NCBI GenBank assembly: GCA_016703005.1 | Contig: JADJCX010000033.1 | Location: forward strand, 164,430-228,429 | From: Flavobacteriales bacterium | GTDB taxonomy: Bacteria > Bacteroidota > Bacteroidia > Flavobacteriales_F > PHOS-HE28 | DNA: 64,000 bases | Direction of reading: 5' to 3' | Part shown: in pieces, positions 6,208 to 58,151 of the stretch | Layout of the letters: every line of letters starts with the position of its first letter | Position numbering within the stretch: the first letter of the stretch is position 1 | The notes under the pieces: model-generated | The model's input: the letters and a program-made list of their open reading frames with translations, nothing else | What the model was told of the DNA's origin: nothing | Database searches by the model: none | Program-made: the position numbers and the translations under genes

Positions 6208-6731
6208 TTAGTGTTCAGCGACACGCTTCAAACCGGCCAGACCGTTCTCGAAATCCTTCCCGATCAGCTTGTCCATGTTCATGAACATGCCCATCACCTT
6301 GCCCATGAACATGTTCGGGCCGTCCATGGTCCAGCGCACGTTGGTGGCGCTGCCTTGCGGTGTGAAGTGGAAATGCGTGATGCACTGGTTCTTGAACGGC
6401 CGCACGAAACGCAGGTCGATCTTTACGCCATTGGTGTTGGCTTCCAGGATCTCCATCGTGCCTTCACCGGCCTTACCATTGCCGCTCCAACCGTATTTGG
6501 CGCCTACGCCTTGCGGTGCAGCCATGTATTCGCGTTTCATGTTCGGGTCCAGTTTCTCCCACGGGCTCCAGGGCATCCACTTGTGGAAGTCCGTGATGTG
6601 GGGAGAATGCTTTCCGGTGAAGCGTTGATCATTGTGCTGCGCTCGTAGTGAACGGAGTTCGGCTTCATGGAAGCCGCAATGAGAATGCCGACGATGAAGA
6701 CGGCGAGGCCGAGGAGGATGTATGTGAGCAT
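6208..6731 (-). CDS. Membrane-anchored SRPBCC family protein (polyketide cyclase/dehydrase-like), disrupted by a frameshift
   Basis: N-terminal piece (ORF 6537-6731: MLTYILLGLAVFIVGILIAASMKPNSVHYERSTMINASPESI) and C-terminal piece (ORF 6208-6795 frame: HITDFHKWMPWSPWEKLDP...GLAGLKRVAEH) are in different frames. The junction is at the G4 run at 6600-6603. Confidence 0.6.
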
Positions 6732-6746
6732 GGTGGTAGGTGTGGA

Positions 6747-7136
6747 TCAGACAGGAGTGTACGTGCGCAGTGAAAGCCGCTTGTGGTGCAGCCAATAAGC
6801 AACGAGCAGCACAGCGATGAAGAGGAACATCGGCGCCCAGATGCTTACCGGATCACCAATGGCCCAGAAGGAGATCACGGCCGCCACCAGATCGATGAAC
6901 AGGCCGAAGTAGGCCCACTCCTTTACGCGGACCGGCAGCATAGGAAGCAGTATGGCAATGGCCCCAATGATCTTGGCCACCGAGATGATTTGTATGAAGT
7001 AGAGCGGGTAGCCCATCTTCACGTGTAGATAGTCCACGGCTTGCTCGTTCAGGGTGAGGCCGCCGATGCTGCTGAAGATCATGAAGGCGCTGAAGAGCGC
7101 GGTGATGATCCAGTAGGCGAGGTTGATACGTTTCAT
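6747..7136 (-). CDS. DoxX family membrane protein
   Basis: MKRINLAYWIITALFSAFMIFSSIGGLTLNEQAVDYL...AIGDPVSIWAPMFLFIAVLLVAYWL. Multi-TM DoxX-like profile. Confidence 0.7.
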   Translation of the reverse strand: MKRINLAYWIITALFSAFMIFSSIGGLTLNEQAVDYLHVKMGYPLYFIQIISVAKIIGAIAILLPMLPVRVKEWAYFGLFIDLVAAVISFWAIGDPVSIWAPMFLFIAVLLVAYWLHHKRLSLRTYTPV

Positions 7137-7222
7137 TCGATAGGGTACAAGTGTGAGAGGTTGAAATGGAAAGAGGGTAAGAGGGTGAAAGGGTGCGAGG
7201 GAACTGGGGATGAATGGCTCTG

Positions 7223-7687
7223 TCACTCTTTCACATTTTCATCGCGCAGGATGAGTTCAAGTTTGTCCAGGTTCTCTTCGTTCGCTTGCGCGATAAAGTT
7301 CTTGATCGGCGCCAGTTCTTCCGCCGTATTGAAGCGCATGATCCACACAATGCGCGTGCCACCGGCCTCTTCGGTGAAGGTCACCATGGCCTTGTAGAAG
7401 TGCATCTCCTTCAGGTGGTCGAACTCCAAATAGCTGTGCGGCTCGATACGGTTGAAGACGCAGGTGTTGACATAGTTCGCGCCATCAGGCCCGTGCATGG
7501 TGAACTCCCAGATGCCTTCGGGCTTCAGGTCGAAGCGATGGAAGGAGTTGGTAAAGCCGTTCGGGCCGTACCAACGCGCGAGCAGATCGGGATCGGTCCA
7601 CGCGGCGAAGACATTCTCGCGCGGAGCCTTGAGCAAGCGCGTGGTGCGCACTTCGCGACCCTCCATGTGATCTTCTGATCTTCTCAT
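7223..7687 (-). CDS. SRPBCC domain protein (Aha1/activator of Hsp90 ATPase-like)
   Basis: EVRTTRLLKAPRENVFAAWTDPDLLARWYGPNGFTN...TRIVWIMRF. Start is ambiguous (ATG at 7687 or 7666). Confidence 0.7.
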   Translation of the reverse strand: MRRSEDHMEGREVRTTRLLKAPRENVFAAWTDPDLLARWYGPNGFTNSFHRFDLKPEGIWEFTMHGPDGANYVNTCVFNRIEPHSYLEFDHLKEMHFYKAMVTFTEEAGGTRIVWIMRFNTAEELAPIKNFIAQANEENLDKLELILRDENVKE

Positions 7688-8064
7688 TTTCTGATCTTCA
7701 GATCCTTCTTCACCGGCCACCGCACCTCGATCTCCGCCACCTTCGCTTTCACGATGTCCTTCACCAATGCAGCGGGCAACGGTTTCTCCGGTGTGAACTG
7801 GATGGTGCCTTTGCTCACAGTGAAGTCCTTCAAGCGGTCCTTGAAACCGAGAGGCACTGAACCGTAGAGCGCCACGTGGTTCTTCGCCGCACCCATGTAC
7901 ACCAACGGATGGCCGTTGTACTTGAATGCGGGCAGCCCATAACCGAAGTGCTCCTCAGCGCCCGGTGCGGCAGCGAGGATCTGCTTGCGCAATTTCTCCA
8001 AGGCATTGCGCTGGTCCTTGGGCAAGGCTATGAGGTATTCGCCGGTGTTCGTTGCTGGTGACAT
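7684..8064 (-). CDS. DUF1801 (YdhG-like) domain protein
   Basis: EYLIALPKDQRNALEKLRKQILAAAPGAEEHFGYGLPAFKYNGHPLVYMGAAKNHVALY is the typical DUF1801 pattern. Confidence 0.7.
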   Translation of the reverse strand: MSPATNTGEYLIALPKDQRNALEKLRKQILAAAPGAEEHFGYGLPAFKYNGHPLVYMGAAKNHVALYGSVPLGFKDRLKDFTVSKGTIQFTPEKPLPAALVKDIVKAKVAEIEVRWPVKKDLKIRK

Positions 8065-8125
8065 GTTGTGATCAGGATCGGTGTCAGTGGGGGCTTTGGT
8101 CCCTCAGCTTCGCTTCCTTTGAAGC

Positions 8126-8764
8126 ATGCGTTACAAGATCGCGGGGTGGGCTGGGTTACTGGGTGTGTTGTTCTTCGTTGGTGAAGCGATCGTCGGTGGT
8201 TTGCAGATCGAAAACTACAGCCACGCCCGTCAGTTCATCAGTGAGACATATGCTTCCGGGACGCCATGGTCCGATATGCTACGGTTCAGTGGTGTGCTTC
8301 CTGCGGGTGTGCTGTTCACGGTATTCGCATTCTTGTCGGCCAGCAAGCTGAGTGTGCCACGTCGGGGCATGATCGGTTTCATCGCGTTCGGTGTATTCTA
8401 TGGCTTGGGCACTGTGGCTGCTGCGTTCTTCCCGTGCGACTTCGGTTGCGATCCCGGCCAAGCTGATCCTACGATCTCACACATCCTCCACTTCGCATCC
8501 GGCACGCTCACGTACCTCTTCACGCCGTTCTGCCTGGTGTTGATCGGTGTGGCGGCGGAAAAATGGCCGAACGCTTCAGCTCTTCCCAAGACATTGCTTG
8601 TCTGCGGTGCGATCATGTTCGCCGGTGTCTTGGTGCTGTTCCTCTTTCCGGTGGATGGCCTGCTGGGACTGAACCAACGGATCATCGAAGGCGCGGCGTT
8701 GGTAAGCATCGTTCGGTGCTCGCAGTATCTGCTCTCGCGCAAAGCGTCCATGGTCCCTGTTTAG
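8126..8764 (+). CDS. DUF998-like membrane protein
   Basis: 212-aa multi-TM ORF on the + strand, divergent from the island genes. The family assignment is from memory of DUF998 proteins. Confidence 0.55.
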   Translation: MRYKIAGWAGLLGVLFFVGEAIVGGLQIENYSHARQFISETYASGTPWSDMLRFSGVLPAGVLFTVFAFLSASKLSVPRRGMIGFIAFGVFYGLGTVAAAFFPCDFGCDPGQADPTISHILHFASGTLTYLFTPFCLVLIGVAAEKWPNASALPKTLLVCGAIMFAGVLVLFLFPVDGLLGLNQRIIEGAALVSIVRCSQYLLSRKASMVPV

Positions 8765-8765
8765 T

Positions 8766-9050
8766 TCACTTCTTCCGGAACGAAAGGCCTGCAGCTTTCA
8801 GCGCGCTTCGCAGCTTGGGCAGGGAACCGGGGCCCATGCCGTGCAACGCCAGTACTTCGCGCTCGCTGCGTCCGGCTAACGTCTTCACGGTGGTGATCCC
8901 TTCGCTCTCCAGCGCCCTGCGCGCGGGTGCACTCAGCTTCGCCATCCAGCCGTCCTTGGGCGCGCCCAGGGTCTCACACACTGGACAAGTCGGGCAATCG
9001 CTGCTCTTGACGTAGCTATGACCGTTGGGACAAGTGCGCCGGTTCTTCAT
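8766..9050 (-). CDS. Small zinc-ribbon + helix-hairpin-helix protein (RNA polymerase alpha CTD-like fold)
   Basis: MKNRRTCPNGHSYVKSSDCPTCPVCE (CxxH...CxxC ribbon) followed by LSAPARRALESEGITTVKTLAGRSEREVLALHGMGPGSLPKL (HhH). Confidence 0.45.
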   Translation of the reverse strand: MKNRRTCPNGHSYVKSSDCPTCPVCETLGAPKDGWMAKLSAPARRALESEGITTVKTLAGRSEREVLALHGMGPGSLPKLRSALKAAGLSFRKK

Positions 9051-9081
9051 TATCTGATCATCTCATTTTCCGATCCTCTGA

Positions 9082-9492
9082 TCAACCTTGCGCCTGCTTC
9101 TGATCCATCCAGAATACCTCCCAGATGTGGCCGTCCAGATCGTTGAAGCTGCGGGCGAACATGAAGCCGTGATCCTCGGCTGGACGGCATTCGGTGGCGC
9201 CACCCGCAAGGGCCTTGTTGTACAACACATCCACCGCTTCGCGACTTTCCACGGAAAAGGCAAGCAGCACTTCGGTGCTCTTGGTCGCGTCCCCAACGGT
9301 CTTGCCCTTCGGCAGGAAACGTTGGATGCTGGACGACGTGTGCAGCATGCAGTAGATGGTATTGCTGATCACCAAACAGGCCGCATCGTCATTGGTGAAC
9401 TGCATGTTGAAACTCCAGCCGAGCTTCTTGAAGAAGGTCATGCTGTTCGCAAGGTCATTGACCTGCATGTTGACGAAGATCTGGGTGGGCAT
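9082..9492 (-). CDS. VOC family protein (glyoxalase/bleomycin-resistance/dioxygenase fold)
   Basis: 136 aa. IFVNMQVNDLANSMTFFKKLGW...ECRPAEDHGFMFARSFNDLDGHIWEVFWMD is typical of small VOC proteins. Confidence 0.7.
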   Translation of the reverse strand: MPTQIFVNMQVNDLANSMTFFKKLGWSFNMQFTNDDAACLVISNTIYCMLHTSSSIQRFLPKGKTVGDATKSTEVLLAFSVESREAVDVLYNKALAGGATECRPAEDHGFMFARSFNDLDGHIWEVFWMDQKQAQG

Positions 9493-9495
9493 CGT

Positions 9496-9960
9496 TCAGG
9501 GTTGTGCGGTTTCGGTGAAGAGGATGAGCCTGCCGAGGCAGTCGTTCCAGCCGACGGCGTGTTCCTCGCAGTGTGCCACGGTGGCGAACGTGGTCTGGTT
9601 CAGGGTGAGCAGGGTGGTGGTGCCGCGTTGCTCGAGGGTGATCTCTACAACGGTATCGCACCAGATGTCGCCTTCGCTGTCCTCGCGCAGCCAGGTGAAG
9701 ACCAGTCGCGATGGCGCGTTGATGTGCGTGTACTCGCCCCGCACCCAGTGGTCGCTGCCGTCGGGTGCGCGCATGCAGAAGCGGTACTTGCCGCCCACGC
9801 GAAAGTCCTGTTCGCAATGGGGTAGCGTGAAGTCGTTCGGTCCCCACCAGCGGACGAGGTGCTTAGGGTTGGTCCATGCGTTGAAAACCAGCTCGCGCGG
9901 AGCATTCAGGATTCGTGATAGCACCAGCGTGCGCTCGTCGGTTGCCGTCAGGGAGTTCAT
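9496..9960 (-). CDS. SRPBCC domain protein (Aha1-like)
   Basis: LVLSRILNAPRELVFNAWTNPKHLVRWWGPNDFT...TTTLLTLNQTTFAT. Confidence 0.75.
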   Translation of the reverse strand: MNSLTATDERTLVLSRILNAPRELVFNAWTNPKHLVRWWGPNDFTLPHCEQDFRVGGKYRFCMRAPDGSDHWVRGEYTHINAPSRLVFTWLREDSEGDIWCDTVVEITLEQRGTTTLLTLNQTTFATVAHCEEHAVGWNDCLGRLILFTETAQP

Positions 9961-9963
9961 GGT

Positions 9964-10245
9964 CTACCGATGAAAGGTCAATGTGTTCAGTCCTTTTGCG
10001 CTGCGTGCTTCCATTAAGGCCAAGCCACCAACGAAGAGCACTTCCGCCAATAGATGCGCAACGCCCAGTGCGCTGAGTTCACTTGCTTTGTTGAAGAGCA
10101 AGCCAAGACAGAAGAGGGCATACAGCGCATTCGCGGTGATGAGCGTCCACACGGGATTGGGACGATAGGCTTTGAGCAGCGTGATCGTACCGGAGAATGC
10201 GCCGTAGCACATCCCGACGATGCCCAGCCGAGCGAACCACGCCAC
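9964..10245 (-). CDS. Small multi-TM membrane protein (possibly the 3' part of a frameshifted longer gene reaching 10355)
   Basis: 93-aa ORF with GTG start and hydrophobic helices. The overlapping ORF 10014-10355 in another frame has a TM-like N-terminus, suggesting one gene with an indel near 10250. Confidence 0.35.
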   Translation of the reverse strand: MAWFARLGIVGMCYGAFSGTITLLKAYRPNPVWTLITANALYALFCLGLLFNKASELSALGVAHLLAEVLFVGGLALMEARSAKGLNTLTFHR

Positions 10246-10351
10246 CGAAAGACCCGAAAGCGGCGACCATACCTCCCGACGAAGAACAGGACAAGTCCCG
10301 CCACGATACCTGCGATGGCGTCGGTACGGATGAGAGCAGGCAGCGACCAGG

Positions 10352-11107
10352 TCATGCGCGTTTTGCTTTGGTCTTTGTCCTGACAGCGGCTGCCGTGCGC
10401 TTCGTATCCCGCTTCTCCGCGCGCTTCGCGATCATCGGTCGGTTGATGTCGCTTAACACATCTTTTCCTACCCAGCGTTCGGTCTTGTCGGTGCTGGCGG
10501 CGAGGCGCTCAGCGACTTCCAGGGCGGCTTCGCGACAGACCACGCTTCGCGAACCCAAACTGCGCAAGGCCCAGCTCACGGCCTTCTTCACGAAGTTGCG
10601 CTCGTCGTTCGCGGCCTTCTCGCATAGGGGCAACAATTCGAGGTAGGGCTCATCGGGTCCTTTCTTGTCGTGCAAGGCGCAACCGGCCAACAACGCGAAC
10701 GCTGCCCGCTTTTCGAACTCCGGCTTACGCTTGGCCCACTGCTTCACCTTGCTGAACGCATGCGGGGTCTTGTCGAAGAGCAGGAAGCACGCCGTGTCGC
10801 AATCAGCCCAATTCTGGAAGTCAGCGCACCAGGCATCCATCATGGAGGGCGTCACCAGCCTGGGGTCAGCAAGGTGTGTGGCCAGCGCTTTGGCTTCATG
10901 CCAACCGGTGTCCCAGAGCAACAGCGCCAATTCGTGGTCCTTGCCGATGGTCTTGGCCAGCTTCTGCACGTCCGGCATCGAAGTACCGAATGCCTGATCC
11001 GTGTGGATCGCGAAGCGCGCTGACAATTGTTCACGGTAGCGCTTCGTGCCATGCGACTCCAACAACTTGAGTGCCGCCTTTACATCCGCTTCTCGCTTCC
11101 CGGCCAT
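10352..11107 (-). CDS. DNA alkylation repair enzyme (AlkD-like HEAT-repeat DNA glycosylase family)
   Basis: 251 aa. LKLLESHGTKRYREQLSARFAIHTDQAFGTSMPDVQKLAKTIGKDHELALLLWDTGWHEAKALATHLADP...DAWCADFQNWADCDTAC matches the PF08713 pattern. Lys-rich C-tail. Confidence 0.65.
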   Translation of the reverse strand: MAGKREADVKAALKLLESHGTKRYREQLSARFAIHTDQAFGTSMPDVQKLAKTIGKDHELALLLWDTGWHEAKALATHLADPRLVTPSMMDAWCADFQNWADCDTACFLLFDKTPHAFSKVKQWAKRKPEFEKRAAFALLAGCALHDKKGPDEPYLELLPLCEKAANDERNFVKKAVSWALRSLGSRSVVCREAALEVAERLAASTDKTERWVGKDVLSDINRPMIAKRAEKRDTKRTAAAVRTKTKAKRA

Positions 11108-11136
11108 TCGGTCATCTCATTGTCTGATCAACTGAT

Positions 11137-11604
11137 CTACGCCACGATCCAGTTCAACTCCGTCCGATACTCGCTCGGACTCTTAACCTCATTCGGGTTG
11201 TTCAGGTAGCTCTCCCAGAATTTCCCCGTTTCGCCGTGGCCGTTCTCGCGCACCCATTTCTGCAAGGCTGGCCATGCTTGCGCCAGTCCTTCGTATGGAC
11301 CTTGGTACACACTCCGCACGACTTTCGCCGCAGGCAGCGTGCTATTGATGACACGTCCCTGAGGCTTGATCGCCTTCGCTACTGGGAATCCGATCTCGAA
11401 GTCAAAGGTGTCTGCCGGTCGGCGATGGTGATAGGAGAACATCGGTCCGCCGTACGGCGGATGCATGCCTTGCTCGGCGAGCACCTGGATGATCTCTTGG
11501 ATCGCAGGGTCCATGTACTTCGGCATGTCGCGGCCGGGGATCACGAGCGGGATGGCAGCCGTGATGACTTCTTGAGTGGTGATGACTTCGGGTGGAGTGA
11601 TCAT
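11137..11604 (-). CDS. GyrI-like small-molecule-binding domain protein
   Basis: 155 aa. MPKYMDPAIQEI...PMFSYHHRRPADTFDFEIGFPV...VRSVYQGPYEGL...SYLNNPNEVKSPSEYRTEL is the GyrI/AraC effector-domain pattern. Confidence 0.6.
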   Translation of the reverse strand: MITPPEVITTQEVITAAIPLVIPGRDMPKYMDPAIQEIIQVLAEQGMHPPYGGPMFSYHHRRPADTFDFEIGFPVAKAIKPQGRVINSTLPAAKVVRSVYQGPYEGLAQAWPALQKWVRENGHGETGKFWESYLNNPNEVKSPSEYRTELNWIVA

Positions 11605-11641
11605 GTTGCTTGGGATTGTCGGGGCCGGGATCTTCCGGCCC

Positions 11642-12595
11642 TTACTTCATGTTCTTCACGAGTTCCTTGATGATCCTCTTGAGGTCCTTTTCCTTTTGCT
11701 TGAGGTCTTCTAGGCTGCGGATCACCAGCAACCGTCGGCCATCGGCGTAGGTGCCTTCCAGTATTCCGTTGGGATCCTTCACGTCGGCGCCGCGCAGGAA
11801 GATCGACCGCACACAGTCCTGCTTGAAGAAGTTGAAGCCGACGACGTAGCGCTTGTAGGTCTTCGGGTCGAAGAGCTTCATCGAACCCGTGTAATAGAAG
11901 GTTGGCGCGTTCCAGAAGATGCCTTCCCCGATGCTCTTGTCCGTGCCGAGGATGAGGGAGCGCAATTCCTTCGCTACATCGAGCAGTGGATGCTTCAGCG
12001 CCTTCATGTGCGCATCCACCGTTCCGGGTTCGGAAGTTCCCGTGAAGAGAGCGTTCTCTTTTTTGGCCTTCCCTCTGCCTTGTTTGGCGAGCAACTTATC
12101 AAGCTCCTGGTAGCTGAACTCCAATCCGCCCTCCATGGGTGAAGCGAGTATCTCGTCGCGGGTCTTCTTGGATCCGTAACGCGCGGTGATCGTCATCAGC
12201 GTGATGCCTTTCTTTTCCGTGAGCACCATGGTGCTGAGTGCTTCGCCCGCATACCACGCCGGCTCGAATTTCTCGGTGTTCACGATGCGCTCTGGGCGCT
12301 TCACCTCTTTGTACACACCGCTCATGCCCATGCCCTTGTCGGCCCCGGCGGAATTGCTCCAGACGTAGCGGTACTTCCCGCCCACGCGCGGATCGATCTC
12401 GCAAACGGAGAGGGTCCAACCAGGCGGACCGTGCAACCACTGCTTTACCATTTCCGGCTTGCTCATGGCATCGAAAACCAGCGCGCGTGGAGCGGCGAAG
12501 CTGCGCGTGATCACGAACTCGCGATCGCCCTTGGGAGTAACTACAGCCCTGTTGCTCGTGCCACGTGCAGGCGACGCGGGTTTGGTCTTGTTCAT
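11642..12595 (-). CDS. SRPBCC (Aha1-like) domain fused to C-terminal DUF1801 domain
   Basis: N-terminal REFVITRSFAAPRALVFDAMSKPEMVKQWLHGPPGWT; C-terminal VDAHMKALKHPLLDVAKELRSLILGTDKSIGEGIFWNAPTFYYTG. Start taken at MNKTKP. Confidence 0.65.
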   Translation of the reverse strand: MNKTKPASPARGTSNRAVVTPKGDREFVITRSFAAPRALVFDAMSKPEMVKQWLHGPPGWTLSVCEIDPRVGGKYRYVWSNSAGADKGMGMSGVYKEVKRPERIVNTEKFEPAWYAGEALSTMVLTEKKGITLMTITARYGSKKTRDEILASPMEGGLEFSYQELDKLLAKQGRGKAKKENALFTGTSEPGTVDAHMKALKHPLLDVAKELRSLILGTDKSIGEGIFWNAPTFYYTGSMKLFDPKTYKRYVVGFNFFKQDCVRSIFLRGADVKDPNGILEGTYADGRRLLVIRSLEDLKQKEKDLKRIIKELVKNMK

Positions 12596-12617
12596 GTCAG
12601 TGTAGTATCGGAGTGGA

Positions 12618-13034
12618 TCAGGCTTGAGCTTCCGTGTACGCTTTGAACCGGTCCAGGATCGCTTGCCAGCCGCCGCGTTGCATCTCCACAGGGTTCTCTG
12701 TCTCTGCATCAAAAGCTTCGGTCACCAGTGTACCTCCTTCCCTTTCGTTGAAATGGATTTCGCAGATGCGACCATCGGCCATGGTGTAGGCGATGCGCTT
12801 GTTCAGTTGAACATCGTCATACACTCCGGCGAAATCGAAGCTGAAGCTGCCATCGCGCGCGGCCATGGTGCTGCTGAATTTGCCGCCGGTGCGCAGGTCA
12901 TTGGTCGCCTTTGGGCAGTGCCAATCGTCGCTCGCCGCGTTCCATTGCGTGATGTGCGCAGGTTCTGTCCAGGTCCCCCAGACGTGGGCCACTGGTTTGT
13001 TCACGAGGGCGGAAACGGTGATGCGGGTACTCAT
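12618..13034 (-). CDS. SRPBCC family protein
   Basis: MSTRITVSALVNKPVAHVWGTWTEPAHITQWNAASDDWHCP...GTLVTEAFDAE. Confidence 0.7.
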   Translation of the reverse strand: MSTRITVSALVNKPVAHVWGTWTEPAHITQWNAASDDWHCPKATNDLRTGGKFSSTMAARDGSFSFDFAGVYDDVQLNKRIAYTMADGRICEIHFNEREGGTLVTEAFDAETENPVEMQRGGWQAILDRFKAYTEAQA

Positions 13035-13068
13035 GGTGTTGTGCGTTCGTAGTGTTGGTCTTGACTTG

Positions 13069-13462
13069 TCAATCCTCAAGGGCTTCGATGCCCTGTTCCT
13101 TCAAGCGTTGCAGGTTGTCCTTCATGGCTTGGAGTTGTTCCGGCGCGTGGCCTTTCCAATCCATCACTTCGCCGATCACGCGCAAGGCATCCTTCGTGCG
13201 GTACGATTTCGTTGGATTGCCCGGGAACTTCTTGTCCGTCAGATTAGGATCATCCTCATATGGCCCCGGGGCTTCCACGATGTAGATCCTTCCGCGTCCT
13301 TCACCGGCAGCGAGTTCAGCGCCCCAGGTAGCGGCATCCAGCGTGGCGGAGAAGTACATACTTCGCCTTGTTCCCTGGCCATAATTGGAATTGAACCGGG
13401 TTCGAGAGGTCGCCCTTCTTCAGATCGGCCTTGGTGCCGTGGTAGAACGTGGGTGATTCCAT
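13069..13462 (-). pseudogene. arr: Rifampin ADP-ribosyltransferase Arr, frameshifted
   Basis: C-terminal fragment (ORF 13069-13359) YFSATLDAATWGAELA...GRGRIYIVEAPGPYEDDPNLTDKKFPGNPTKSYRT...RVIGEV.DW.GH aligns with Arr-2/Arr-ms. N-terminus MESPTFYHGTKADLKKGDL (Arr FYHGTKA motif) is in another frame. The shift is at a C/G run near 13396-13400. Confidence 0.55.
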
Positions 13463-13474
13463 GTCGCATGCATT

Positions 13475-13975
13475 CATAGACCGGACGCGAGCAGTTCATC
13501 CAACTGATCAAGGCCCATGGTGAAGCCTTCCTTGAAGCCCATCGCCACGATCTGCTCCAGTTCTTCTGGTGAACCAAAGTGGAGGATGGCGCGCACCAAT
13601 GTGCGACCATCCGTTCTTGCTGAAGTGCGCTTCCCAACTCACCTTGGGCTTCGTGTCGTTCCCTACGCCGTGCTCATCGCAGAACGAATCGCTGCCCGAG
13701 AAGTGCGACTTCGGCCGGACGGTCTCGTAGTCGAAGAAGCACCAGTGCCGGTCGCCTTGCGGGCCTTGCATGTAGTAGAGCCAACGCCCACCTTCACGGA
13801 AGTCGAGTGCCTTGATCACGCACTCATAAGGCTTCGGAGCCCACCACTGGCAAAGGATGTCCGCATTGGTCCACGCGGCCCACACCGGATCCAGCGGGGC
13901 GTTGAAGGATCGCTCCACGGTGATCGACCGGGCGTCCTTTTGAACGATGAAGTTGAAGATCGCTGCTTTGCTCAT
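13475..13975 (-). CDS. SRPBCC domain protein (Aha1-like), C-terminus frameshifted
   Basis: ORF 13508-13975 gives ITVERSFNAPLDPVWAAWTNADILCQWWAP. The canonical C-terminus DGRTLVRAILHFGSPEELEQIVAMGFKEGFTMGLDQLDELLASGL is in another frame after EAHFS, with the shift near 13612-13622. Confidence 0.6.
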
Positions 13976-13987
13976 GGTTCAATGGGT

Positions 13988-14437
13988 TTATGGAGTGCTC
14001 AGGTAGTCGTCCAAGCGTGCGAGCGTTTGCTGGCCGCCTTCGATCGCGCCGATCTCTTTGACGGCGAAGTCCCGTGCTTCCTTGTTGGGGAAGAGGGTGC
14101 GAAGGGTCACGAGTGTTCCGCCTTCGGTTTCCTCGAAGGTGATGACGGCCTCGAATTGTTTGGGGTTCTGCCAGTCGCCGTGATCGTAGGCCAGACGGTC
14201 GATGGGGGACACCTCGGTATAGGTCACGAGATTCTCGAACACGCGGCCCTCTCCGGATGTCATCGTGAATTTCCATTGCCCACCGATGCGGACATCCATG
14301 GAAAGCGTCTTATTCGTAAAGCCGTTGGGCCCGAACCAATGATCCACATGCGCGGGATCCGTCCAAGCCTGCCACACGATCGATCGTGTGGCCTTAACGG
14401 TGCGGCTGATGATGATCTCGCGGTCACTCTTGTTCAT
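13988..14437 (-). CDS. SRPBCC domain protein (Aha1-like)
   Basis: MNKSDREIIISRTVKATRSIVWQAWTDPAHVDHWFGPNGFTN. ATGA overlap with the upstream arsR-family gene. Confidence 0.7.
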   Translation of the reverse strand: MNKSDREIIISRTVKATRSIVWQAWTDPAHVDHWFGPNGFTNKTLSMDVRIGGQWKFTMTSGEGRVFENLVTYTEVSPIDRLAYDHGDWQNPKQFEAVITFEETEGGTLVTLRTLFPNKEARDFAVKEIGAIEGGQQTLARLDDYLSTP

Positions 14438-14811
14438 GGCTTCTTCTTTTTGGCCTTCGCTGTCTTCGCGGAGGTGGCCTTGGCATCGGCCGACTTGGCT
14501 TGCAGTTCCATCAGGTAGGCATCGAGGCGATCGAAGCGCTCCTCCCACATCTGACGATACTGTTCGATCCAGGCGTCGGCTTCGCGCAGCGGTTCGGCCT
14601 TCATCTCGCAGGGGCGCCATTGGGCCTCGCGGCCGCGTGCGATGAGTTGTGCGCGTTCCAGCACCTTCAAGTGTTTGCTGATCGCCGGCAGGCTCATGCT
14701 GAACGGCGCTGCGATCTCGTTCACCGAGGCGGCACCCGTGCTCAAGCGCGCGAGAATGGCGCGTCTCGTAGGGTCGGCGAGGGCGGAGAAGGTGAGCGAG
14801 AGGCGGTCCAT
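14434..14811 (-). CDS. ArsR/SmtB family transcriptional regulator
   Basis: MDRLSLTFSALADPTRRAILARLSTGAASVNEIAAPFSMSLPAISKHLKVLERAQLI is the HTH of ArsR family. It is the first gene of the minus-strand array. Confidence 0.75.
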   Translation of the reverse strand: MDRLSLTFSALADPTRRAILARLSTGAASVNEIAAPFSMSLPAISKHLKVLERAQLIARGREAQWRPCEMKAEPLREADAWIEQYRQMWEERFDRLDAYLMELQAKSADAKATSAKTAKAKKKKP

Positions 14812-14831
14812 TGTTCCTTGAAGGGACAAAC

Positions 14832-14855
14832 GTATTAAACCAAATGGTTAAATAC
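14832..14855. promoter_or_regulatory. Putative ArsR operator (imperfect palindrome) overlapping the promoter of the ArsR-led operon
   Basis: gtattaaacc-aaa-tggttaaatac (11/12 inverted repeat) is ~20 bp upstream of the ArsR start. A Bacteroidota -7-like TAcgTTTG follows on the coding (minus) strand. Confidence 0.4.
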
Positions 14856-14934
14856 AAGAGGTCGCAGAAATTTTCATTCGGGATAGGGGTGATCAGCGGT
14901 CCATCTGTCTTAGGGACACACTTCAAAACCAACT

Positions 14935-15606
14935 ATGATGGATCTCCGTTTTCCCGCTGCTCTCATCGCAGCATCATTGCTTTCGCTCAATGGTCTCCAT
15001 GCTCAAGAGAAGGATGCTGAGCCCCGGACGCTATTCGGTTCAGAACATGAACGCAAGAATGGCGGTTGGGGCGGACCGTCCGTTGCACTTACCGAGATCA
15101 TGGGCACCGAAGCCTTGCTTGTGGGATTACATGCCGGCTGGCTCATCGATCATCGCTTCACACTCGGACTTGCTGGTTACGGACTTGTTACGGATGTCCC
15201 GAACAAGGCGTACGACGCGTACCTCTTGGATAGCGGTCGCCGACTGAACAAGGGCAGCCAATTCCGGATGGGCTATGGCGGTCTGCTCTTGGAGCCGATC
15301 ATCGCTTACCGGAGCCCGGTGCATGTGAGCCTGCCCATTATCATCGGGGCCGGGGGATGTGGCTACGAGACCTTCGGACCGCTGCCCGACGATTTCGACC
15401 CGGAGGAGTATGACTACCGCAATGATGGCCAGGCGTTCTTCGTGGTCGAGCCAGGTGTTGCACTCGAGTTCAACCTCGTACGAATGGTCCGGTTAGGCCT
15501 CGGCGCATCGTACCGGTACACGACCGACGTTGATCTGCCCGGCACGCCTGCGGATATCCTTCACGGGCTGAACACGGCGTTCACGATCAAGGTGGGGCGG
15601 TTCTGA
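14935..15606 (+). CDS. Secreted hypothetical protein (possible outer-membrane beta-barrel)
   Basis: 223 aa. Signal peptide MMDLRFPAALIAASLLSLNGLHAQ. Alternating hydrophobic/Gly-rich strands. C-terminal TAFTIKVGRF ends with aromatic F. Confidence 0.5.
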   Translation: MMDLRFPAALIAASLLSLNGLHAQEKDAEPRTLFGSEHERKNGGWGGPSVALTEIMGTEALLVGLHAGWLIDHRFTLGLAGYGLVTDVPNKAYDAYLLDSGRRLNKGSQFRMGYGGLLLEPIIAYRSPVHVSLPIIIGAGGCGYETFGPLPDDFDPEEYDYRNDGQAFFVVEPGVALEFNLVRMVRLGLGASYRYTTDVDLPGTPADILHGLNTAFTIKVGRF

Positions 15607-15649
15607 CATTCACCACGTAACTCTTGCAGCGCTGATCAACTTTGCCGAC

Positions 15650-16726
15650 ATGCGGCGCTTTTCTTCAGCGGTGGTCGGTGTGTGCTTTGCCGCCTTGGTC
15701 ACGGCGCAGTCACCGGCGCTGATCGCGTACTACGCCGGTGATGGTAGCAACCTTGATGAGCACCGTATCGAACAACTCACACACTTGATCTGGTGCTTCG
15801 GTCACGTGCGCAATGATTCGATGGAGATCGCTCCATCGCAGGAACCGATCATCGAACGGATGGTCGGGTTCAAGCTGCGCAACCCCGGGCTGAAAGTGTT
15901 GATCTCCCTTGGCGGGTGGGGAGGATGTCCGACCTGTAGTGAAGTGTTCGGCCGCGAAGAGGGCAGGAGAAAGTTCTCCGCGAGTGTGCTTCATCTGATG
16001 GATCGCTTGAACGTCGACGGCATTGATCTCGATTGGGAGTATCCCGCCGTGCAAGGTCCGCCGGGTCACCGGTTCGCGCCGGAGGACCAGCGGAACTTCA
16101 CGTTGCTGGTGCAGGAGTTGCGTCGGGTGCTCGGGCCGGGGCGCGAGATCAGTTTCGCCGTTGGCGGAACCGATGACTGCATCCTGAAGGGCTTCGAGTG
16201 GGACAGCATTATGCCGTTGATCGATCGCATGCACATCATGAGCTACGACTTGGTGCATGGCTATAGCTCCCGTACAGGGCATCACACGCCGCTGTATTCA
16301 TGTGGTCACCAGGCCTTGTCGGCTGATCATGCCGTACGCCTGCTCGATTCGTTGCAGGTGCCAAGACGGAAGGTCGTTATAGGTGCCGCGTTCTACGCCC
16401 GCCTCTGGAAGGACGTCCCGGCCGTTGACAATGGCCTTTTTCAGCCCGGAGCGTTCAGTCATACCATCCCATGGGGCGCCTCGGACACCACGCTGACCAA
16501 GGCCAAAGGTTGGTCCATGTTCCGGGACAAGGAAGCATGGGCAGCCTACGCGTACAATGCCGAACTGAAGCAGTTCGCAACTTTCGATGATGCCGCAAGC
16601 ATAGCAGCCAAAGCGAACGACGTCCGGCACGAGGGATTGGGTGGCATCATGTTCTGGCAATTGATCGATGACAAGGCCCGGAACGGACTGCTTGAGGTGA
16701 TGTACAAGGCGCTACGCGCACCTTGA
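15650..16726 (+). CDS. Glycoside hydrolase family 18 (chitinase-like)
   Basis: Signal peptide. The [10 protein letters not shown] catalytic motif (DxxDxDxE) is present. Confidence 0.75.
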
Positions 16727-44757: not shown

Positions 44758-45711
44758 TCAAGGCATCTGCGCTGTCCGGATGTTCGTGGGTACCGAGCCG
44801 CCCACGTTCTGGAGGATGGGATCGCGATCGTTGTCGGCCCCCACGTACTTCACCACGCCATCCATGTTCACGTCCGCGGGATGGTAGCCGTTCACCGTGT
44901 TGGTGGGAACCACCCCACCGATCGCCACAAGGATGGGATCGCGGTCGTTGTTGGCGCCCACGTATTTCAGCAGGCCATCGAAGTCCGTGTTGCCCGACCA
45001 CATCACGTGGGTACCAGCGATGAGCTGTTGCGCATCCGTTCCATAGGTGGGCGTGCTGCCGTTGGTGAGGTTGATGGTTGCGCTTGTGCTCGTGAGCGCG
45101 ACCGTATTCAGGGTCATTACCGCCAGATGATTCCGATGGCGAAGGGCGATGAAGTAGGCGTCTGCCGACAACGGGAAGCGCACCGGTGAGAAGCCGTCCA
45201 TCTCCACCACATCGCCATCGGCCTGCAGCAATGCGCTGCGACTGTGCAGCACGTTGGCATTGTCATTCTTGTCGCGCAATTCCAGCACCACCCAATCGAT
45301 GATGGCATTGCTTCCGGGGAGATCGATGATGGGCTGCGTGGTGCTTTCGCCGCCACCGCCCACGAAGGTGTAGCCCAGAGCGGTGTAAGGTTCGTTCAGC
45401 GGCAACAGCCCGCTGACGCGCAGGCCATCGCTCATCGCTCCGCTTGTGTAAGGGCCTTGCAAGAAGGCCTTCACGTTCACGAGCACGCGCACGGCGCTGG
45501 ACTGCTGGTAGCCTTGCGTTACCTGTCCGCCGGGAACAGTGCCTGTCCCAATGATCGGTTCACCTATCGACCAACTGATGGTGTTGTTCGGCAGCACGGT
45601 GGTGCCGCCATCGGTGCCGATGAGGACTTGCGCGCGCAGCCCGTTGACCAGCGCGAGCAGTGCGATCGCGATCACGCTGCGCAAAGCGCTTCGATGTGTT
45701 CGTGTGTTCAT
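44758..45711 (-). CDS. Secreted hypothetical protein
   Basis: Signal peptide MNTRTHRSALRSVIAIALLALVNGLRAQ. No recognised domain. Confidence 0.45.
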   Translation of the reverse strand: MNTRTHRSALRSVIAIALLALVNGLRAQVLIGTDGGTTVLPNNTISWSIGEPIIGTGTVPGGQVTQGYQQSSAVRVLVNVKAFLQGPYTSGAMSDGLRVSGLLPLNEPYTALGYTFVGGGGESTTQPIIDLPGSNAIIDWVVLELRDKNDNANVLHSRSALLQADGDVVEMDGFSPVRFPLSADAYFIALRHRNHLAVMTLNTVALTSTSATINLTNGSTPTYGTDAQQLIAGTHVMWSGNTDFDGLLKYVGANNDRDPILVAIGGVVPTNTVNGYHPADVNMDGVVKYVGADNDRDPILQNVGGSVPTNIRTAQMP

Positions 45712-45860
45712 GGTCCCGTGTGTTGTGGGGATGATCACGATCACTTGTGGCTCTGTGCTTCCAACACGCTGCGCAACTGCTGCATCAGCGCGGTGTTCGC
45801 GTCCAGTTGCGCGCGGATGGCGTTGAGGGCCTCGTCCTTTGCCGCGTTCCCCGCGCGCAA

Positions 45861-46655
45861 TCATACGATCTCGGCCTGTTGCGCCCCGATCATCGCGTTC
45901 AGCTCCTTCACCGCATTCACGAGCATGTAGGTCATGGCGCTGTTGTCCACTTCCAGGTATTCCGTGCCATCGATCACCAGTGTGTCGATCATGTAAGGTG
46001 CCACCTCGCGGAGTTGTTGCGCGATCACGCCCACGTACTCAATGGTCGTATCGGTCTTGGCCAGGCTGTTGTACCGGAAGTGCACGGGCTCAATGGCCAG
46101 TACGGCGCCCAGGCCATCGCCGTACGGCCGCACATCGCGCTTCAAGCGTTGATCGGAGAACACGGCCCATGAGCCGCCGCCGGTCTTGTTCGCCGAGCCG
46201 TTCACGCTAAGCAGGGCCGTGGGCCCCAGGGTACCGATGCCCACGTTGCCGCTGGCCGTTAGGGTCATCACAGATAAGGTGTTGGTGATGAAGGTCAGGT
46301 CATGCGCGCTCCTCGTACCGAACCATGCTGAAGCATTGCCAGGGAAATAGGAACCCAAGATGATATTGCCATCCGTATGGCTAAATCCACCGCCGACGCC
46401 TGGTGTACGTACAGTGAGTTTATCGGTGGATGTTGTTGTGCCGATCCCCACGTTGCCGTTGGTCAACAAGGTGATCTGGGGGCTGCTATTGTTGGTGAAG
46501 AAGCTCAGGCTGTGGTTGCTCTTCGTGCCCAACCATCCTCCACTGGTGCTCCCCCACATAGGACCCCACGGTGATCGTACCATCGGTATGGGTGAACCCG
46601 AAGTTGCTGGTGGCCGTTCGCACGGTGAGCTTATCGGTGGGTGCGTTCGTACCAA
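45861..46655 (-). CDS. C-terminal fragment of the giant protein with tail-fibre intramolecular-chaperone (peptidase S74-like) domain
   Basis: GGSWAVFSDQRLKRDVRPYGDGLGAVLAIEPVHFRYN...EYVGVIAQQLREVAPYMI resembles the auto-cleaving C-terminal chaperone of phage tail fibres/endosialidases. Confidence 0.55.
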   Translation of the reverse strand: MVRTHPPISSPCERPPATSGSPIPMVRSPWGPMWGSTSGGWLGTKSNHSLSFFTNNSSPQITLLTNGNVGIGTTTSTDKLTVRTPGVGGGFSHTDGNIILGSYFPGNASAWFGTRSAHDLTFITNTLSVMTLTASGNVGIGTLGPTALLSVNGSANKTGGGSWAVFSDQRLKRDVRPYGDGLGAVLAIEPVHFRYNSLAKTDTTIEYVGVIAQQLREVAPYMIDTLVIDGTEYLEVDNSAMTYMLVNAVKELNAMIGAQQAEIV

Positions 46656-48054
46656 TACCCACGTTGCCTTCGACGATCGCTCCGTTCGTGGGTGCGGCTG
46701 TTGTACCGGAGAAGTTGGCGCCTACGGCCATGCCGCCTTCCACATCCAATTTGCTGGCAGGCGTGGTGGTGCCGATGCCCACGTTCGTTCCATCGTCGGT
46801 CATCACGCCATCGGTGAGTGTGGTGCCGTTCCACTTGGGCACCTGGTTCGTTGTGGCGCTGCTCACCTGCGGGTCCGTTTCAGCCGCCACGTTCTGCCAA
46901 GTGGCCGCACCGTTCGCATCCGAAGTGAGTACGCGGCCAGCGGCTTGTGTGCCATCGGCGATGCGCACGTTGCCCGCTACATGCAACTTGGCTGCGGGCG
47001 CGGTGGTGCCGATGCCGACGTTGCCTTCGATGATGGCTCCGTTCGCCGGTGCGGCTGTTGTACCGGAGTAGGTGGCGCCTACGGCCATGCCTCCTTCCAC
47101 ATCCAATTTGCTGGCGGGCGTGGTGGTGCCGATGCCCACGTTGCCCGTCGCATCTTCCACCATGGCGGCATCACCGAGAATGGTTCCCGTATTGCCGAAT
47201 TTGGCCAGGTGGTTCAAGGTGCCGTTGGCGTTCACCGCCGGGCCTACGGCACCTTGTGGGCCGACGGGGCCTTGCGGACCAACGGCCTTGCCGGCATTGA
47301 TCACGCTGGCATCGCTCAGCGTTACGTAGAGCGAATCGTTGGTGATCGCTGCGGTCGTTACCGATACCCCTTGCGGGCCGGTGGGGCCCGTGGATCCCGT
47401 GGGACCTTGCACACCCGTTGGGCCTTGGTCGCCTACCTCGCCAGCGATGCTCGCCGCCCATGAGCTGTATGTGCCGGAACCCATGGTCCTGTCCACCAGC
47501 ACCGTGATGTTAGCCACTCCGCCGCTGGTGATGTTCCCTTCCATCCATAGAGCCGTAGTGGGGTAAACGCTGATGCGTACACGGGAACCTATGTTATAGG
47601 CGGTGTTCCGGTCCAACGCGAACGACTTTGAACCGGTGCCGATGGTCTGCGAGGTGAAGGAAAAGGCGTAGTAGCCAGGACCCGATGCTCCAGTTGCTCC
47701 ATTGGACCCGTTCATACCGGTTATGGCGATGGTCCATGGGCTATACGTACCTGAGCCGAGCGCTCCTTGTAGCGATACTGACATGGATGTCCCGCTGGGG
47801 GTGTATGCAGTGACAGTACCGAACATGTAGTGTGTCGTGGGGTTGCCGGTCCTGCTGATCCTTACGTTATCGCCCACTTGATAAGCCAGGCCCGTTTGCG
47901 TGGCGAACGTGATAGTGCCACTTGGGGCAATGGTCATTGCCGTTGTGGACGTTGCGTAGTACCCCGGCCCAGTGGCTCCTTGCGGTCCTGTTGCTCCTGT
48001 TGCACCCGTTGCTCCTGTTGCGCCTACCGCTCCTTGCGGCCCTGTAGCGCCCAC
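46486..48054 (-). CDS. Central/C-proximal fragment of the giant protein (collagen-like Gly-X-Y tracts and beta-helix repeats)
   Basis: GATGATGATGATGPQGATGP, GPTGVQGPTGSTGPTGPQG, GPQGPVGPQGAVGP. GNVGIGTTTPASKLDVEGGMAVGA appears twice. Confidence 0.6.
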   Translation of the reverse strand: MGATGPQGAVGATGATGATGATGPQGATGPGYYATSTTAMTIAPSGTITFATQTGLAYQVGDNVRISRTGNPTTHYMFGTVTAYTPSGTSMSVSLQGALGSGTYSPWTIAITGMNGSNGATGASGPGYYAFSFTSQTIGTGSKSFALDRNTAYNIGSRVRISVYPTTALWMEGNITSGGVANITVLVDRTMGSGTYSSWAASIAGEVGDQGPTGVQGPTGSTGPTGPQGVSVTTAAITNDSLYVTLSDASVINAGKAVGPQGPVGPQGAVGPAVNANGTLNHLAKFGNTGTILGDAAMVEDATGNVGIGTTTPASKLDVEGGMAVGATYSGTTAAPANGAIIEGNVGIGTTAPAAKLHVAGNVRIADGTQAAGRVLTSDANGAATWQNVAAETDPQVSSATTNQVPKWNGTTLTDGVMTDDGTNVGIGTTTPASKLDVEGGMAVGANFSGTTAAPTNGAIVEGNVGIGTNAPTDKLTVRTATSNFGFTHTDGTITVGSYVGEHQWRMVGHEEQPQPELLHQQ

Positions 48055-51088: not shown

Positions 51089-51231
51089 GGTGTTGGTTTT
51101 CGGTGAGGCAAAGCAGCCGTGTTACCGCGCACGCATCAATCGGGTATCCCTATGATGTTGCTGCTACCTTGTCATAGGATCCTATGATGCATGCACAGTG
51201 GTTCCGCGCAAGCTGCGTAACGTTGGCGCGG

Positions 51232-54449: not shown

Positions 54450-54459
54450 TTTCGCCCAC

Positions 54460-55098: not shown

Positions 55099-55106
55099 GT
55101 GCGGAT

Positions 55107-55238: not shown

Positions 55239-55273
55239 TCAGAAGATCAGACAATAGGACGATCAGAAAACGA

Positions 55274-55300
55274 GAAGCCCCGACACGTCGGGGCTTCTGC
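55274..55300. terminator. Bidirectional hairpin terminator
   Basis: gaagccccgac-ac-gtcggggcttc is a perfect 11-bp stem between convergent genes. Confidence 0.55.
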
Positions 55301-55317
55301 TTACAGGATCCTTATCG

Positions 55318-58147: not shown

Positions 58148-58151
58148 ACGG

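What the first reader, a model, noticed from the sequence alone, without database searches (positions are those of the whole stretch)
13069..13462. Rifampin ADP-ribosyltransferase (arr) embedded in the island, but frameshifted
The C-terminal 96 aa align convincingly with Arr-2/Arr-ms (YFSA..WGAELA..GRG.IYIVE..GP.EDDPN.T.K.FPGNPT.SYR). The FYHGTKA N-terminal motif is present in another frame. The frame change is at a 3-5-nt C/G run (13396-13400). If intact, this would be a Bacteroidota arr inside a stress operon, near a zinc-ribbon/HhH small protein with an RNAP alpha-CTD-like fold (8766-9050). It is either a recent pseudogene or a homopolymer sequencing error.
Basis: partly seen in the sequence, partly recalled or inferred. 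Interest (0 to 1): 0.5.

Follow-up and report, generated by a model that had tools for sequence, protein, structure and literature searches.

The report
Broken rifampin-resistance (arr) gene copy
This is an ordinary rifampin ADP-ribosyltransferase (arr) gene of an uncultured wastewater Flavobacteriales bacterium whose reading frame is broken at four closely spaced spots, most likely by assembly errors, because a sister genome of the same species carries the same gene intact.

Summary
Window 13069-13477 (minus strand) is a true arr gene. A repaired translation scores 195 bits on NCBIfam rifampin_ARR (cut-off 130). It aligns without gaps to Arr-ms (PDB 2HW2, E=2e-48), and the HGT, SNY, Tyr49 and Asp84 equivalents are all present.

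The damage is not a single homopolymer slip. Compared with intact relatives, the window lacks 5 nt at four sites within 52 nt (about 13406, 13396-97, 13374-76 and 13356-58). The ancestral reading therefore passes through all three frames.

A same-species MAG, GCA_963851765.1, has an intact 137-aa arr. Its 5' 95 nt and 3' 210 nt are identical to the window.

The window's source appears to be a long-read "population-bin" MAG. arr lies in a 459-nt strain-variable cassette, which other strains replace with a Polyketide_cyc2 gene. The window also has other private gene-breaking deletions.

I rate a local consensus artefact at about 0.6 and a real, very recent pseudogene at about 0.33. Either way, the sequence as written cannot encode an active enzyme.

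Arr in Bacteroidota is already documented, and this ArsR/SRPBCC operon context recurs in fetched relatives. Interest is low.

The parts
13069..13477 (-). arr gene (NAD+--rifampin ADP-ribosyltransferase). The start is ATG 13477 (MNACDMESPT..., as called in the sister MAG) or ATG 13462 (MESPT..., as in the closest homologues). The stop is TGA 13069-13071. The frame is interrupted.
   Evidence: intact 137-aa orthologue in L089. (2HW2, E=2e-48).
13316..13477 (-). N-terminal ORF of 53 aa. It carries only the HGT NAD+-binding motif (FYHGTKADLKKGDL), then out-of-frame sequence and a stop.
   Evidence: Arr-ms profile positions 1-34, 19 bits.
13069..13359 (-). C-terminal ORF of 96 aa. It carries the catalytic Asp (EDDPN) and the rifampin-binding segments but lacks HGT and SNY.
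   Evidence: Arr profile positions 32-99 and 36-131.
13405..13407 (-). Indel site 1. One nt is missing and there is one substitution (sense strand CTGATCGAA in L089, CT-CTCGAA here). This is not a homopolymer.
13396..13400 (-). One nt is missing (sense strand CCCGGGTTC in L089, CCCGGTTC here; G3 to G2).
13374..13376 (-). Indel site 3. One nt is missing (sense strand CAGGGGAAC in L089, CAGGGAAC here; G4 to G3).
13356..13358 (-). Indel site 4. Two nt are missing (sense strand TATGTGTAC in L089, TATGTAC here; GTGT to GT). It hits the codons for Val37/Tyr38, and Tyr38 is the Tyr49 equivalent of Arr-ms.
13250..13300 (-). Patch of about 11 substitutions relative to the sister-MAG allele (GRG..EAPGPY here, GHG..EPTGQY in L089). 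Similar variants occur in other intact arr genes (GEGRG and EATGPY/EGTGPY in P0011/P0007; GEGHG and EPTGQY in P0016), so this looks like real allelic or recombinational variation.
13028..13486 (-). Strain-variable cassette that holds arr. In strains L090 (Illumina) and L091, a 642-nt segment encoding a 180-aa Polyketide_cyc2 protein occupies this slot instead.
13474..13975 (-). Upstream SRPBCC/AHSA1 gene, frameshifted by one extra base at 13611-13612 (AACGGATGG here, AAC-GATGG elsewhere). The same extra base is present in the sister MAG L089 and absent from L090, L091 and L086.
   Evidence: AHSA1 profile positions 1-71 of 125 only.
12618..13034 (-). Downstream AHSA1 gene of 138 aa, intact and syntenic with the arr loci of P0007 and P0011.
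11642..12592 (-). AHSA1-DUF1801 fusion gene. It is identical to MBK6777345.1 (P0121) and was used to locate the same-species loci.
13988..14811 (-). Head of the operon: the ArsR-family regulator (14434-14811) and the first AHSA1 gene (13988-14437).

Best explanation
What it is:
- The locus is a genuine chromosomal arr gene (NAD+--rifampin ADP-ribosyltransferase, Arr family).
- The host is an uncultured activated-sludge Flavobacteriales bacterium.
- arr sits as a strain-variable cassette inside an ArsR-headed operon of small ligand-binding and detoxification genes (AHSA1/SRPBCC, DUF1801, GyrI-like, VOC/Ble-like, DNA-alkylation repair).

How it would work (inferred from the family, not tested):
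- An intact Arr binds NAD+ through the HGT, SNY and Tyr motifs.
- With the catalytic Asp it transfers ADP-ribose to the C23 hydroxyl of rifamycins. C23 is recalled from my own knowledge of the family, not from a paper read here.

What is wrong with it here (shown):
- The coding sequence lacks 5 nt at four sites within 52 nt (13356-13407).
- HGT, SNY/Tyr and the Asp-bearing core therefore fall in different frames.
- No ORF can give an active enzyme.

Most likely cause (inferred):
- The four deletions are local consensus errors of a long-read, mixed-strain "population bin" assembly.
- They fall in a cassette that only part of the population carries, so the cassette was probably poorly covered and poorly polished.
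- They are probably not mutations of a living cell. The species itself has an intact arr.
For: Identity:
- Pfam Arr-ms scores 139.7 bits and NCBIfam rifampin_ARR (an equivalog model) scores 195.4 bits against a cut-off of 130.
- The four-site reconstruction aligns without gaps over 129 aa to Arr-ms 2HW2 (E=2e-48). His19, Tyr49 and Asp84 correspond to His8, Tyr38 and Asp73. The motif definitions come from PMC8492726.
- 8000 homologues were found, the best at 86-88% identity.

Four-site lesion:
- Shown by the alignments.

Intact allele in the same species:
- L089 (GCA_963851765.1) is 96.9% identical in nt over window 7644-16584 and has a 137-aa arr.
- The flanking 95 nt at the 5' end and 210 nt at the 3' end of the gene are identical to the window.
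- That leaves no divergence time for four independent mutations.

For an artefact:
- All four lesions are deletions. Three of them contract short runs or repeats (G3, G4, GTGT).
- They are clustered (P about 1.5e-5).
- All lie inside the 459-nt cassette that other co-occurring strains lack.
- The window matches proteins of a 510,943-nt contig of a MAG with IPG74_ locus tags.
- The sister MAG of that series (JADKDH01, L091) has its own private one-nt deletion that truncates the GyrI-like gene.
- The window has a further private one-nt deletion at 10280. It splits a 130-aa gene that is intact in both L089 and L091.
- The window also has a multiply frameshifted LVIVD gene at 48-51 kb.
- A large set of activated-sludge MAGs (PRJNA629478) is described as Nanopore plus Illumina "population bins", not single strains (PMC9765116). 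That the window's MAG belongs to that set is my recollection of the accession series.

Operon context:
- annotate the window's operon.
- The same synteny with an intact arr is found in seven other Flavobacteriales MAG species and on the contigs of the closest homologues.
Against: - No reads are available, so the error explanation is not demonstrated.
- Over the 5.7 kb that could be compared with Illumina contigs (54392-60149), the window has no frame-breaking indels. The assembly is therefore not generally poor.
- If the source is a PRJNA629478 MAG it was polished with Illumina reads, which should remove most homopolymer errors.
- Site 1 is not a homopolymer contraction and includes a substitution.
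- The neighbouring SRPBCC gene carries a frameshift shared by two independent assemblies. Real frameshifts therefore do exist in this part of the operon in the arr-bearing lineage.
- The link between the window's MAG and the Nanopore project rests on my recollection of the accession and locus-tag series, not on a tool result (one search found no paper naming these accessions).
Confidence: 0.6

Rival explanations
1. The gene is a real, very recent pseudogene. In this strain arr was inactivated by a clustered set of small deletions. These could come from one complex slippage or repair event, or from recombination with a damaged template. Relaxed selection on this part of the operon would allow it.
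For: - The adjacent upstream SRPBCC gene has a +1 frameshift shared by the window and the independently assembled L089. Intact versions exist in L090, L091 and L086.
- arr is dispensable in the species, because strains L090 and L091 lack it altogether.
- The window is clean against Illumina contigs elsewhere.
- A patch of 11 real-looking substitutions lies 50-100 nt from the indels. This suggests a recombination tract in this part of the gene.
Against: - Four independent indels within 52 nt are very improbable, given that the rest of the gene is identical to the intact allele and there are no stop codons or other signs of decay.
- All four events are deletions, and most contract short repeats. 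That is a typical long-read consensus error profile.
- The window and its sister MAG each carry other private gene-breaking one-nt deletions.
Confidence: 0.33
2. One reading: a single homopolymer slip at 13396-13400 is the only lesion. Removing one base would restore the native protein.
For: The single-base repair gives an uninterrupted 130-aa ORF that passes the Arr profiles.
Against: - The repaired segment (SNPFNSNYGQGTRRSM) disagrees with every close homologue and with the same-species allele (IEPGFNSNYGQGNKAKYV).
- The missing peptide pieces (L/I)EPG and GNKAKYV are found in the other two frames.
- The DNA alignments show four gaps.
Confidence: 0.03
3. The product is made by programmed recoding, that is, ribosomal frameshifting or transcriptional slippage, and is functional.
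For: None beyond the presence of short G/C runs.
Against: - Four shifts of different sizes would be needed within 17 codons.
- Orthologues, including the one from the same species, are encoded in a single frame.
Confidence: 0.01

Closest known systems
Arr-ms of Mycolicibacterium smegmatis (PDB 2HW2) and the Arr family (Pfam PF12120, NCBIfam NF033144)
   Same: - The reconstructed protein aligns without gaps over 129 aa (E=2e-48).
- The HGT motif, the S[NH][YF] motif (SNY), the Tyr49 equivalent and the catalytic Asp84 equivalent are all present.
- The length class is the same, 132-137 aa.
   Different: - In this window the ORF is interrupted at four sites.
- The host is a Flavobacteriales MAG rather than an actinobacterium.
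- Activity has not been tested.
Arr-2 of integrons and plasmids in Gram-negative pathogens (PDB 9IBA)
   Same: Same family (E=3.4e-45).
   Different: - Here arr is chromosomal.
- It is not in an integron cassette or transposon. It lies within an ArsR/SRPBCC operon whose synteny is conserved across several Flavobacteriales MAG species.
Intact orthologues in wastewater Flavobacteriales: the 137-aa arr of GCA_963851765.1 (L089:3114-3527) and P0007/P0011 (132 aa)
   Same: - L089 is the same species. Its 5' and 3' gene parts are identical, and the operon and neighbours are the same.
- P0007 and P0011 are 86-88% identical in protein and share the SRPBCC-arr-AHSA1(138 aa)-AHSA1 synteny.
   Different: - The window lacks 5 nt at four sites.
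- It differs from L089 by a patch of about 11 substitutions that changes four residues (GRG/EAPGPY here, GHG/EPTGQY in L089).

Membership tests
Arr (rifampin ADP-ribosyltransferase; PF12120 / NF033144) | The profile-HMM score is above the curated cut-off. | tested here: met
   - The single-site repaired translation scores 139.7 bits on Pfam (cut-off 25) and 195.4 bits on NCBIfam (cut-off 130).
- The 96-aa C-terminal ORF alone scores 164.3 bits.
Arr (rifampin ADP-ribosyltransferase; PF12120 / NF033144) | The NAD+-binding motifs HGT and S[NH][YF] and the conserved Tyr (Tyr49 of Arr-ms) are present. | tested here: met
   - All three are encoded: FYHGT, FNSNYG and KYVYF after reconstruction.
- They lie in different reading frames of the window. 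The motif definitions come from PMC8492726.
Arr (rifampin ADP-ribosyltransferase; PF12120 / NF033144) | The catalytic Asp (Asp84 of Arr-ms) is present. | tested here: met
   The EDDPN segment is present, and Asp73 aligns to Asp84 in the gapless alignment to 2HW2.
Arr (rifampin ADP-ribosyltransferase; PF12120 / NF033144) | A single uninterrupted ORF of about 130-150 aa contains all the motifs. | tested here: not met
   - The window has a 53-aa ORF and a 96-aa ORF in different frames, with four indel sites.
- The feature is met in the same-species MAG L089, at 137 aa.
Arr (rifampin ADP-ribosyltransferase; PF12120 / NF033144) | The protein ADP-ribosylates rifamycins and confers rifampicin resistance. 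| not testable with these tools
   This needs expression of the intact allele, followed by MIC measurement and LC-MS.
Assembly/consensus artefact of a long-read MAG | The lesions are absent from the reads or from independent sequencing of the same sample. | not testable with these tools
   - No reads are available.
- Indirect support only: an intact allele in a same-species MAG, private one-nt deletions elsewhere, and location in a strain-variable cassette.
Mobile arr cassette (integron or transposon, Arr-2 type) | The gene is flanked by attC/attI or intI sites, or by transposon ends. | not tested
   - The annotated neighbours on the arr strand, from ArsR to Polyketide_cyc2 (6208-14811), are operon genes and include no integrase or transposase.
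- No attC search was run.
- The cassette swap with a Polyketide_cyc2 gene has its break-points in the flanking conserved genes.

The most novel reading that the evidence does not exclude
The arr slot of this ArsR-controlled SRPBCC operon may be a genuine swap-in/swap-out position. Co-occurring strains of one wastewater Flavobacteriales species would then carry an intact arr, an arr inactivated by a single complex clustered-deletion event, or an unrelated Polyketide_cyc2 ligand-binding gene. This would point to ongoing gain, loss and decay of a rifamycin- or xenobiotic-modifying function within a modular small-molecule-defence operon, and possibly to a native Arr substrate other than rifamycins.
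Probability: 0.15. Interest if true: 0.35.

Novelty: already known. Interest (0 to 1): 0.12.

Why it matters
- It matters little for biology. Arr is a well-characterised resistance enzyme that is widespread in environmental Bacteroidota, and orthologues in this same operon context are already annotated automatically.
- The practical value is a caution. Resistome surveys on long-read population-bin MAGs can miss arr or mislabel it as a pseudogene.
- A single-site repair of a frameshift can yield a plausible protein that passes the profile and is still wrong.
- The strain-level alternation of arr with a Polyketide_cyc2 gene at one operon slot is a modest but real observation about microdiversity of resistance genes in activated sludge.

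Tried and rejected
1. Exact-product look-ups of the 96-aa ORF, the 138-aa AHSA1 and a 683-aa window protein found nothing. The window's own record is not in that collection. P0121 is also not retrievable.
2. Two metagenome contigs pattern scans returned 0 hits. One used a wobble-degenerate EAPGPYEDDPNLTDKKFPG pattern. The other used a 35-mer conserved in the window, L086, L087 and L088. The second pattern should have matched the JGI records behind L087 and L088. The collection evidently lacks such short contigs, so these zeros say nothing about arr.
3. The genome-contig scan returned 80 arr loci from other species but not the window's genome. It was useful only for synteny.
4. I tested whether the indels are systematic nanopore errors at methylation motifs. 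Sites 1-4 overlap GATC, CCCGGG, CCAGG and GTAC in the intact allele. GATC, CCGG and GTAC sites are not preferentially altered between Illumina contigs and the long-read MAGs. I rejected this idea as unsupported.
5. I looked for a second arr copy in the window that might cause a chimeric consensus. There is none.
6. A codon-usage gene-caller census of frameshifts was too noisy, because shadow ORFs contaminated the training set. I replaced it with targeted Pfam checks.
7. A literature search for the MAG accessions found nothing.

Full report
**1. The observation**

The gene lies on the minus strand. ORF 13069-13359 (96 aa, MYFSATLDAATWGAELA...QGIEALED) and ORF 13316-13477 (53 aa, MNACDMESPTFYHGTKADLKKGDL...) are in different frames.

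- The C-terminal ORF alone scores 110 bits on Pfam Arr-ms and 164 bits on NCBIfam rifampin_ARR, whose cut-off is 130.
- The N-terminal ORF matches the first 34 profile positions.

This is an arr gene.

**2. The lesion is more complex than reported**

A database search returned 8000 Arr homologues. The closest are 132-aa proteins at 86-88% identity.

- In the protein alignment all of them read GDLIEPGFNSNYGQ(R/G)NKAKYVYFSATL.
- The window has GDL in one frame, (L)EPG in a second, FNSNYGQG in the third, GNKAKYV back in the first, and YFSATL... in the third again.
- DNA alignment to the contigs of the closest intact genes (L086/L087 for P0007, L088 for P0011, about 90% nt identity) shows four gaps totalling 5 nt and no other disruption.

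**3. Same-species comparison**

- A 585-aa window protein is encoded identically on four contigs that are 98-99% identical to the window in nt. One of them is NCBI MAG GCA_963851765.1.
- The window's AHSA1-DUF1801 protein is identical to MBK6777345.1, on a 510,943-nt contig of a "Flavobacteriales bacterium" MAG.
- A second window protein equals IPG74_16620 on a contig of the same length. That MAG is very probably the window's source.
- Through a cluster member I retrieved the homologous island of GCA_963851765.1 (L089; 96.9% nt identity over window 7644-16584).
- There arr is an intact 137-aa gene that reads MNACDMESPTFYHGTKADLKKGDLIEPGFNSNYGQGNKAKYVYFSATL.... This is exactly the sequence reconstructed from the three window frames.

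Relative to this allele the window shows the following changes.

| Site | Window position | Intact allele (L089) | Window | Nature |
|---|---|---|---|---|
| 1 | about 13406 | CCTGATCGAA | CCT-CTCGAA | 1 nt missing plus a substitution |
| 3 | 13374-76 | CAGGGGAAC | CAGGG-AAC | G4 to G3 |
| 4 | 13356-58 | TATGTGTAC | TATGT--AC | GTGT to GT |

- The first 95 nt and the last 210 nt of the gene are identical in the two genomes.
- A patch of about 11 substitutions lies at about 13250-13300 (GRG/EAPGPY here, GHG/EPTGQY in L089).
- Similar variants occur in other intact arr genes (P0007 and P0011 on one side, P0016 on the other). The patch therefore looks like real allelic variation.

**4. Function**

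- The four-site reconstruction aligns without gaps to Arr-ms (2HW2) over 129 residues (E=2e-48).
- By that alignment His19, Tyr49 and Asp84 of Arr-ms correspond to His8, Tyr38 and Asp73. The SNY motif is also present.
- These are the family's NAD+-binding and catalytic elements as summarised in PMC8492726.
- In the window these elements are split among frames. Site 4 hits the Val37/Tyr38 codons. The 96-aa ORF lacks both HGT and SNY.
- As written, the locus cannot make an active enzyme.
- That an intact copy would ADP-ribosylate rifamycins is inferred from family membership. It was not tested.

**5. Context**

arr sits in a minus-strand operon:

- ArsR regulator (14434-14811)
- AHSA1 (13988-14437)
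- SRPBCC, frameshifted (13474-13975)
- arr
- AHSA1 (12618-13034)
- AHSA1-DUF1801 fusion (11642-12592)
- GyrI-like
- DNA_alkylation
- a small membrane protein
- AHSA1
- VOC/Ble-like
- a 94-aa Zn-ribbon/HhH protein
- DUF998, on the opposite strand
- DUF1801
- AHSA1
- DoxX
- Polyketide_cyc2

The same order, with an intact arr, is found on the contigs of the closest homologues. It is also found in seven other Flavobacteriales MAG species among the 80 arr loci fetched. Arr is documented in hundreds of Bacteroidetes genomes, which show the highest allele diversity of the four main phyla (PMC8492726). A Bacteroidota arr in this setting is therefore ordinary.

**6. Strain variability**

- Two other same-species contigs carry a 642-nt segment encoding a 180-aa Polyketide_cyc2 protein exactly where the window has arr. 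These are L090, an Illumina MEGAHIT contig from wastewater, and L091, from GCA_016718415.1.
- The break-points are at window 13487 and 13027.
- arr is therefore a cassette present in only some strains.
- All four arr deletions lie inside this cassette.

**7. Artefact or pseudogene?**

For an artefact:

- All four events are deletions, and three of them contract short runs.
- They are strongly clustered. Four of six window-specific deletions in 8.9 kb fall within 52 nt (simulated P about 1.5e-5).
- The rest of the gene is identical to the intact allele, which argues against a series of independent mutations.
- The window has another private one-nt deletion at 10280 (GG to G). It splits a 130-aa gene that is intact in both L089 and L091.
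- L091 has its own private deletion that truncates the GyrI-like gene.
- An LVIVD-repeat gene at 48-51 kb is broken several times relative to a 558-aa protein of the sister MAG.
- MAGs of the activated-sludge project PRJNA629478 are described as Nanopore plus Illumina "population bins" rather than strains (PMC9765116).
- That the IPG74/MBK67 and JADKDH records belong to that project is my recollection of the accession series. No tool confirmed it.
- A cassette carried by a sub-population would have low depth and poor polishing, which would explain errors concentrated there.

For a real pseudogene:

- The upstream SRPBCC gene has a +1 G at 13611-12. The window and L089 share it, and it is absent from L090, L091 and L086. 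At least one real frameshift probably exists next door.
- The window shows no frame-breaking indels against Illumina contigs over 54392-60149.
- Site 1 is not a simple repeat contraction.

I put the artefact at about 0.6 and a real recent pseudogene at about 0.33. The single-slip model is refuted. Programmed recoding is implausible, because four shifts would be needed and the same-species allele is in a single frame.

**8. Dead ends**

- Two metagenome scans returned nothing, although one pattern should have matched known JGI records.
- An idea that the indels reflect methylation-motif basecalling errors was not supported.
- There is no second arr copy in the window.

**9. Verdict**

- The lesion was under-described, and the setting is not unusual.
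- This is a known gene family in a recurrent context, broken most likely by assembly error.
- Read mapping or Sanger sequencing of 13340-13420 would settle the question.

Noticed in passing
window 13474-13975 (-), extra base at 13611-13612: The SRPBCC/AHSA1 gene upstream of arr is frameshifted by one extra G (AACGGATGG). The same extra base is present in the independently assembled sister MAG (L089). It is absent from Illumina contig L090, from L091 and from L086, where the gene is intact at 167 aa. This is probably a real lineage-specific frameshift.
   Followed up: partly
window 9964-10355 (-), deletion at 10280: A one-nt deletion (CGGTCGG to CG-TCGG) is private to the window. It splits a 130-aa small membrane-protein gene into 93-aa and 113-aa ORFs. 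The gene is intact in both L089 and L091.
   Followed up: partly
window 45700-51100 (-): This is a cluster of surface-protein-like genes with LVIVD beta-propeller repeats, collagen triple-helix repeats and a Peptidase_S74 (tail-fibre chaperone) domain. The LVIVD part (48027-51088) is cut into four or five ORFs in three frames. A related 558-aa protein of the sister MAG (P0216, 51% identical over the query piece and 77% over its first 363 residues) maps across at least two frame changes, at about 49997 and about 49493. There is also an in-frame stop at 49062.
   Followed up: partly
window 8766-9050 (-): This 94-aa protein has an N-terminal CxxH...CPxC zinc-ribbon-like motif. It gives a sub-threshold Pfam hit to the RNA polymerase alpha C-terminal (HhH) domain, at 21.4 bits against a cut-off of 23.8. 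It is conserved at the same operon position in L089, L091, L018 and L062. Its function is unknown.
   Followed up: partly
window 13028-13486 versus L090:2927-3568 and L091:2927-3568: There is a strain-level cassette swap. arr in the window and L089 is replaced in other same-species strains by an unrelated 180-aa Polyketide_cyc2 gene. The region upstream of the swap (ArsR and two AHSA1 genes) is much more divergent between the two strain types (85-92% nt) than the region downstream (96-98%).
   Followed up: partly
L089:2155-2616 (equivalent to window 13988-14437) and L091:2231-2977, 5137: The sister long-read MAGs have uncalled or truncated genes of their own in this operon. In L089 the first AHSA1 gene is not called, and the alignment there is divergent with a net 2-nt length difference. 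In L091 two AHSA1 genes are not called, and the GyrI-like gene is truncated by a private one-nt deletion.
   Followed up: no
window 6208-6795 (-): The Polyketide_cyc2 ORF has a 65-aa His/Arg-rich N-terminal extension that does not match the profile, which starts at model position 20. This may be a wrong start or another frameshift.
   Followed up: no
window 13265-13276 (-), codons EAPG: The window's arr allele has Ala-Pro (VEAPGP) where more than 90% of the aligned homologues have Pro/Ala-Thr (VEPTG or VEATG). The near-invariant Thr is replaced by Pro. The effect on activity is unknown.
   Followed up: no
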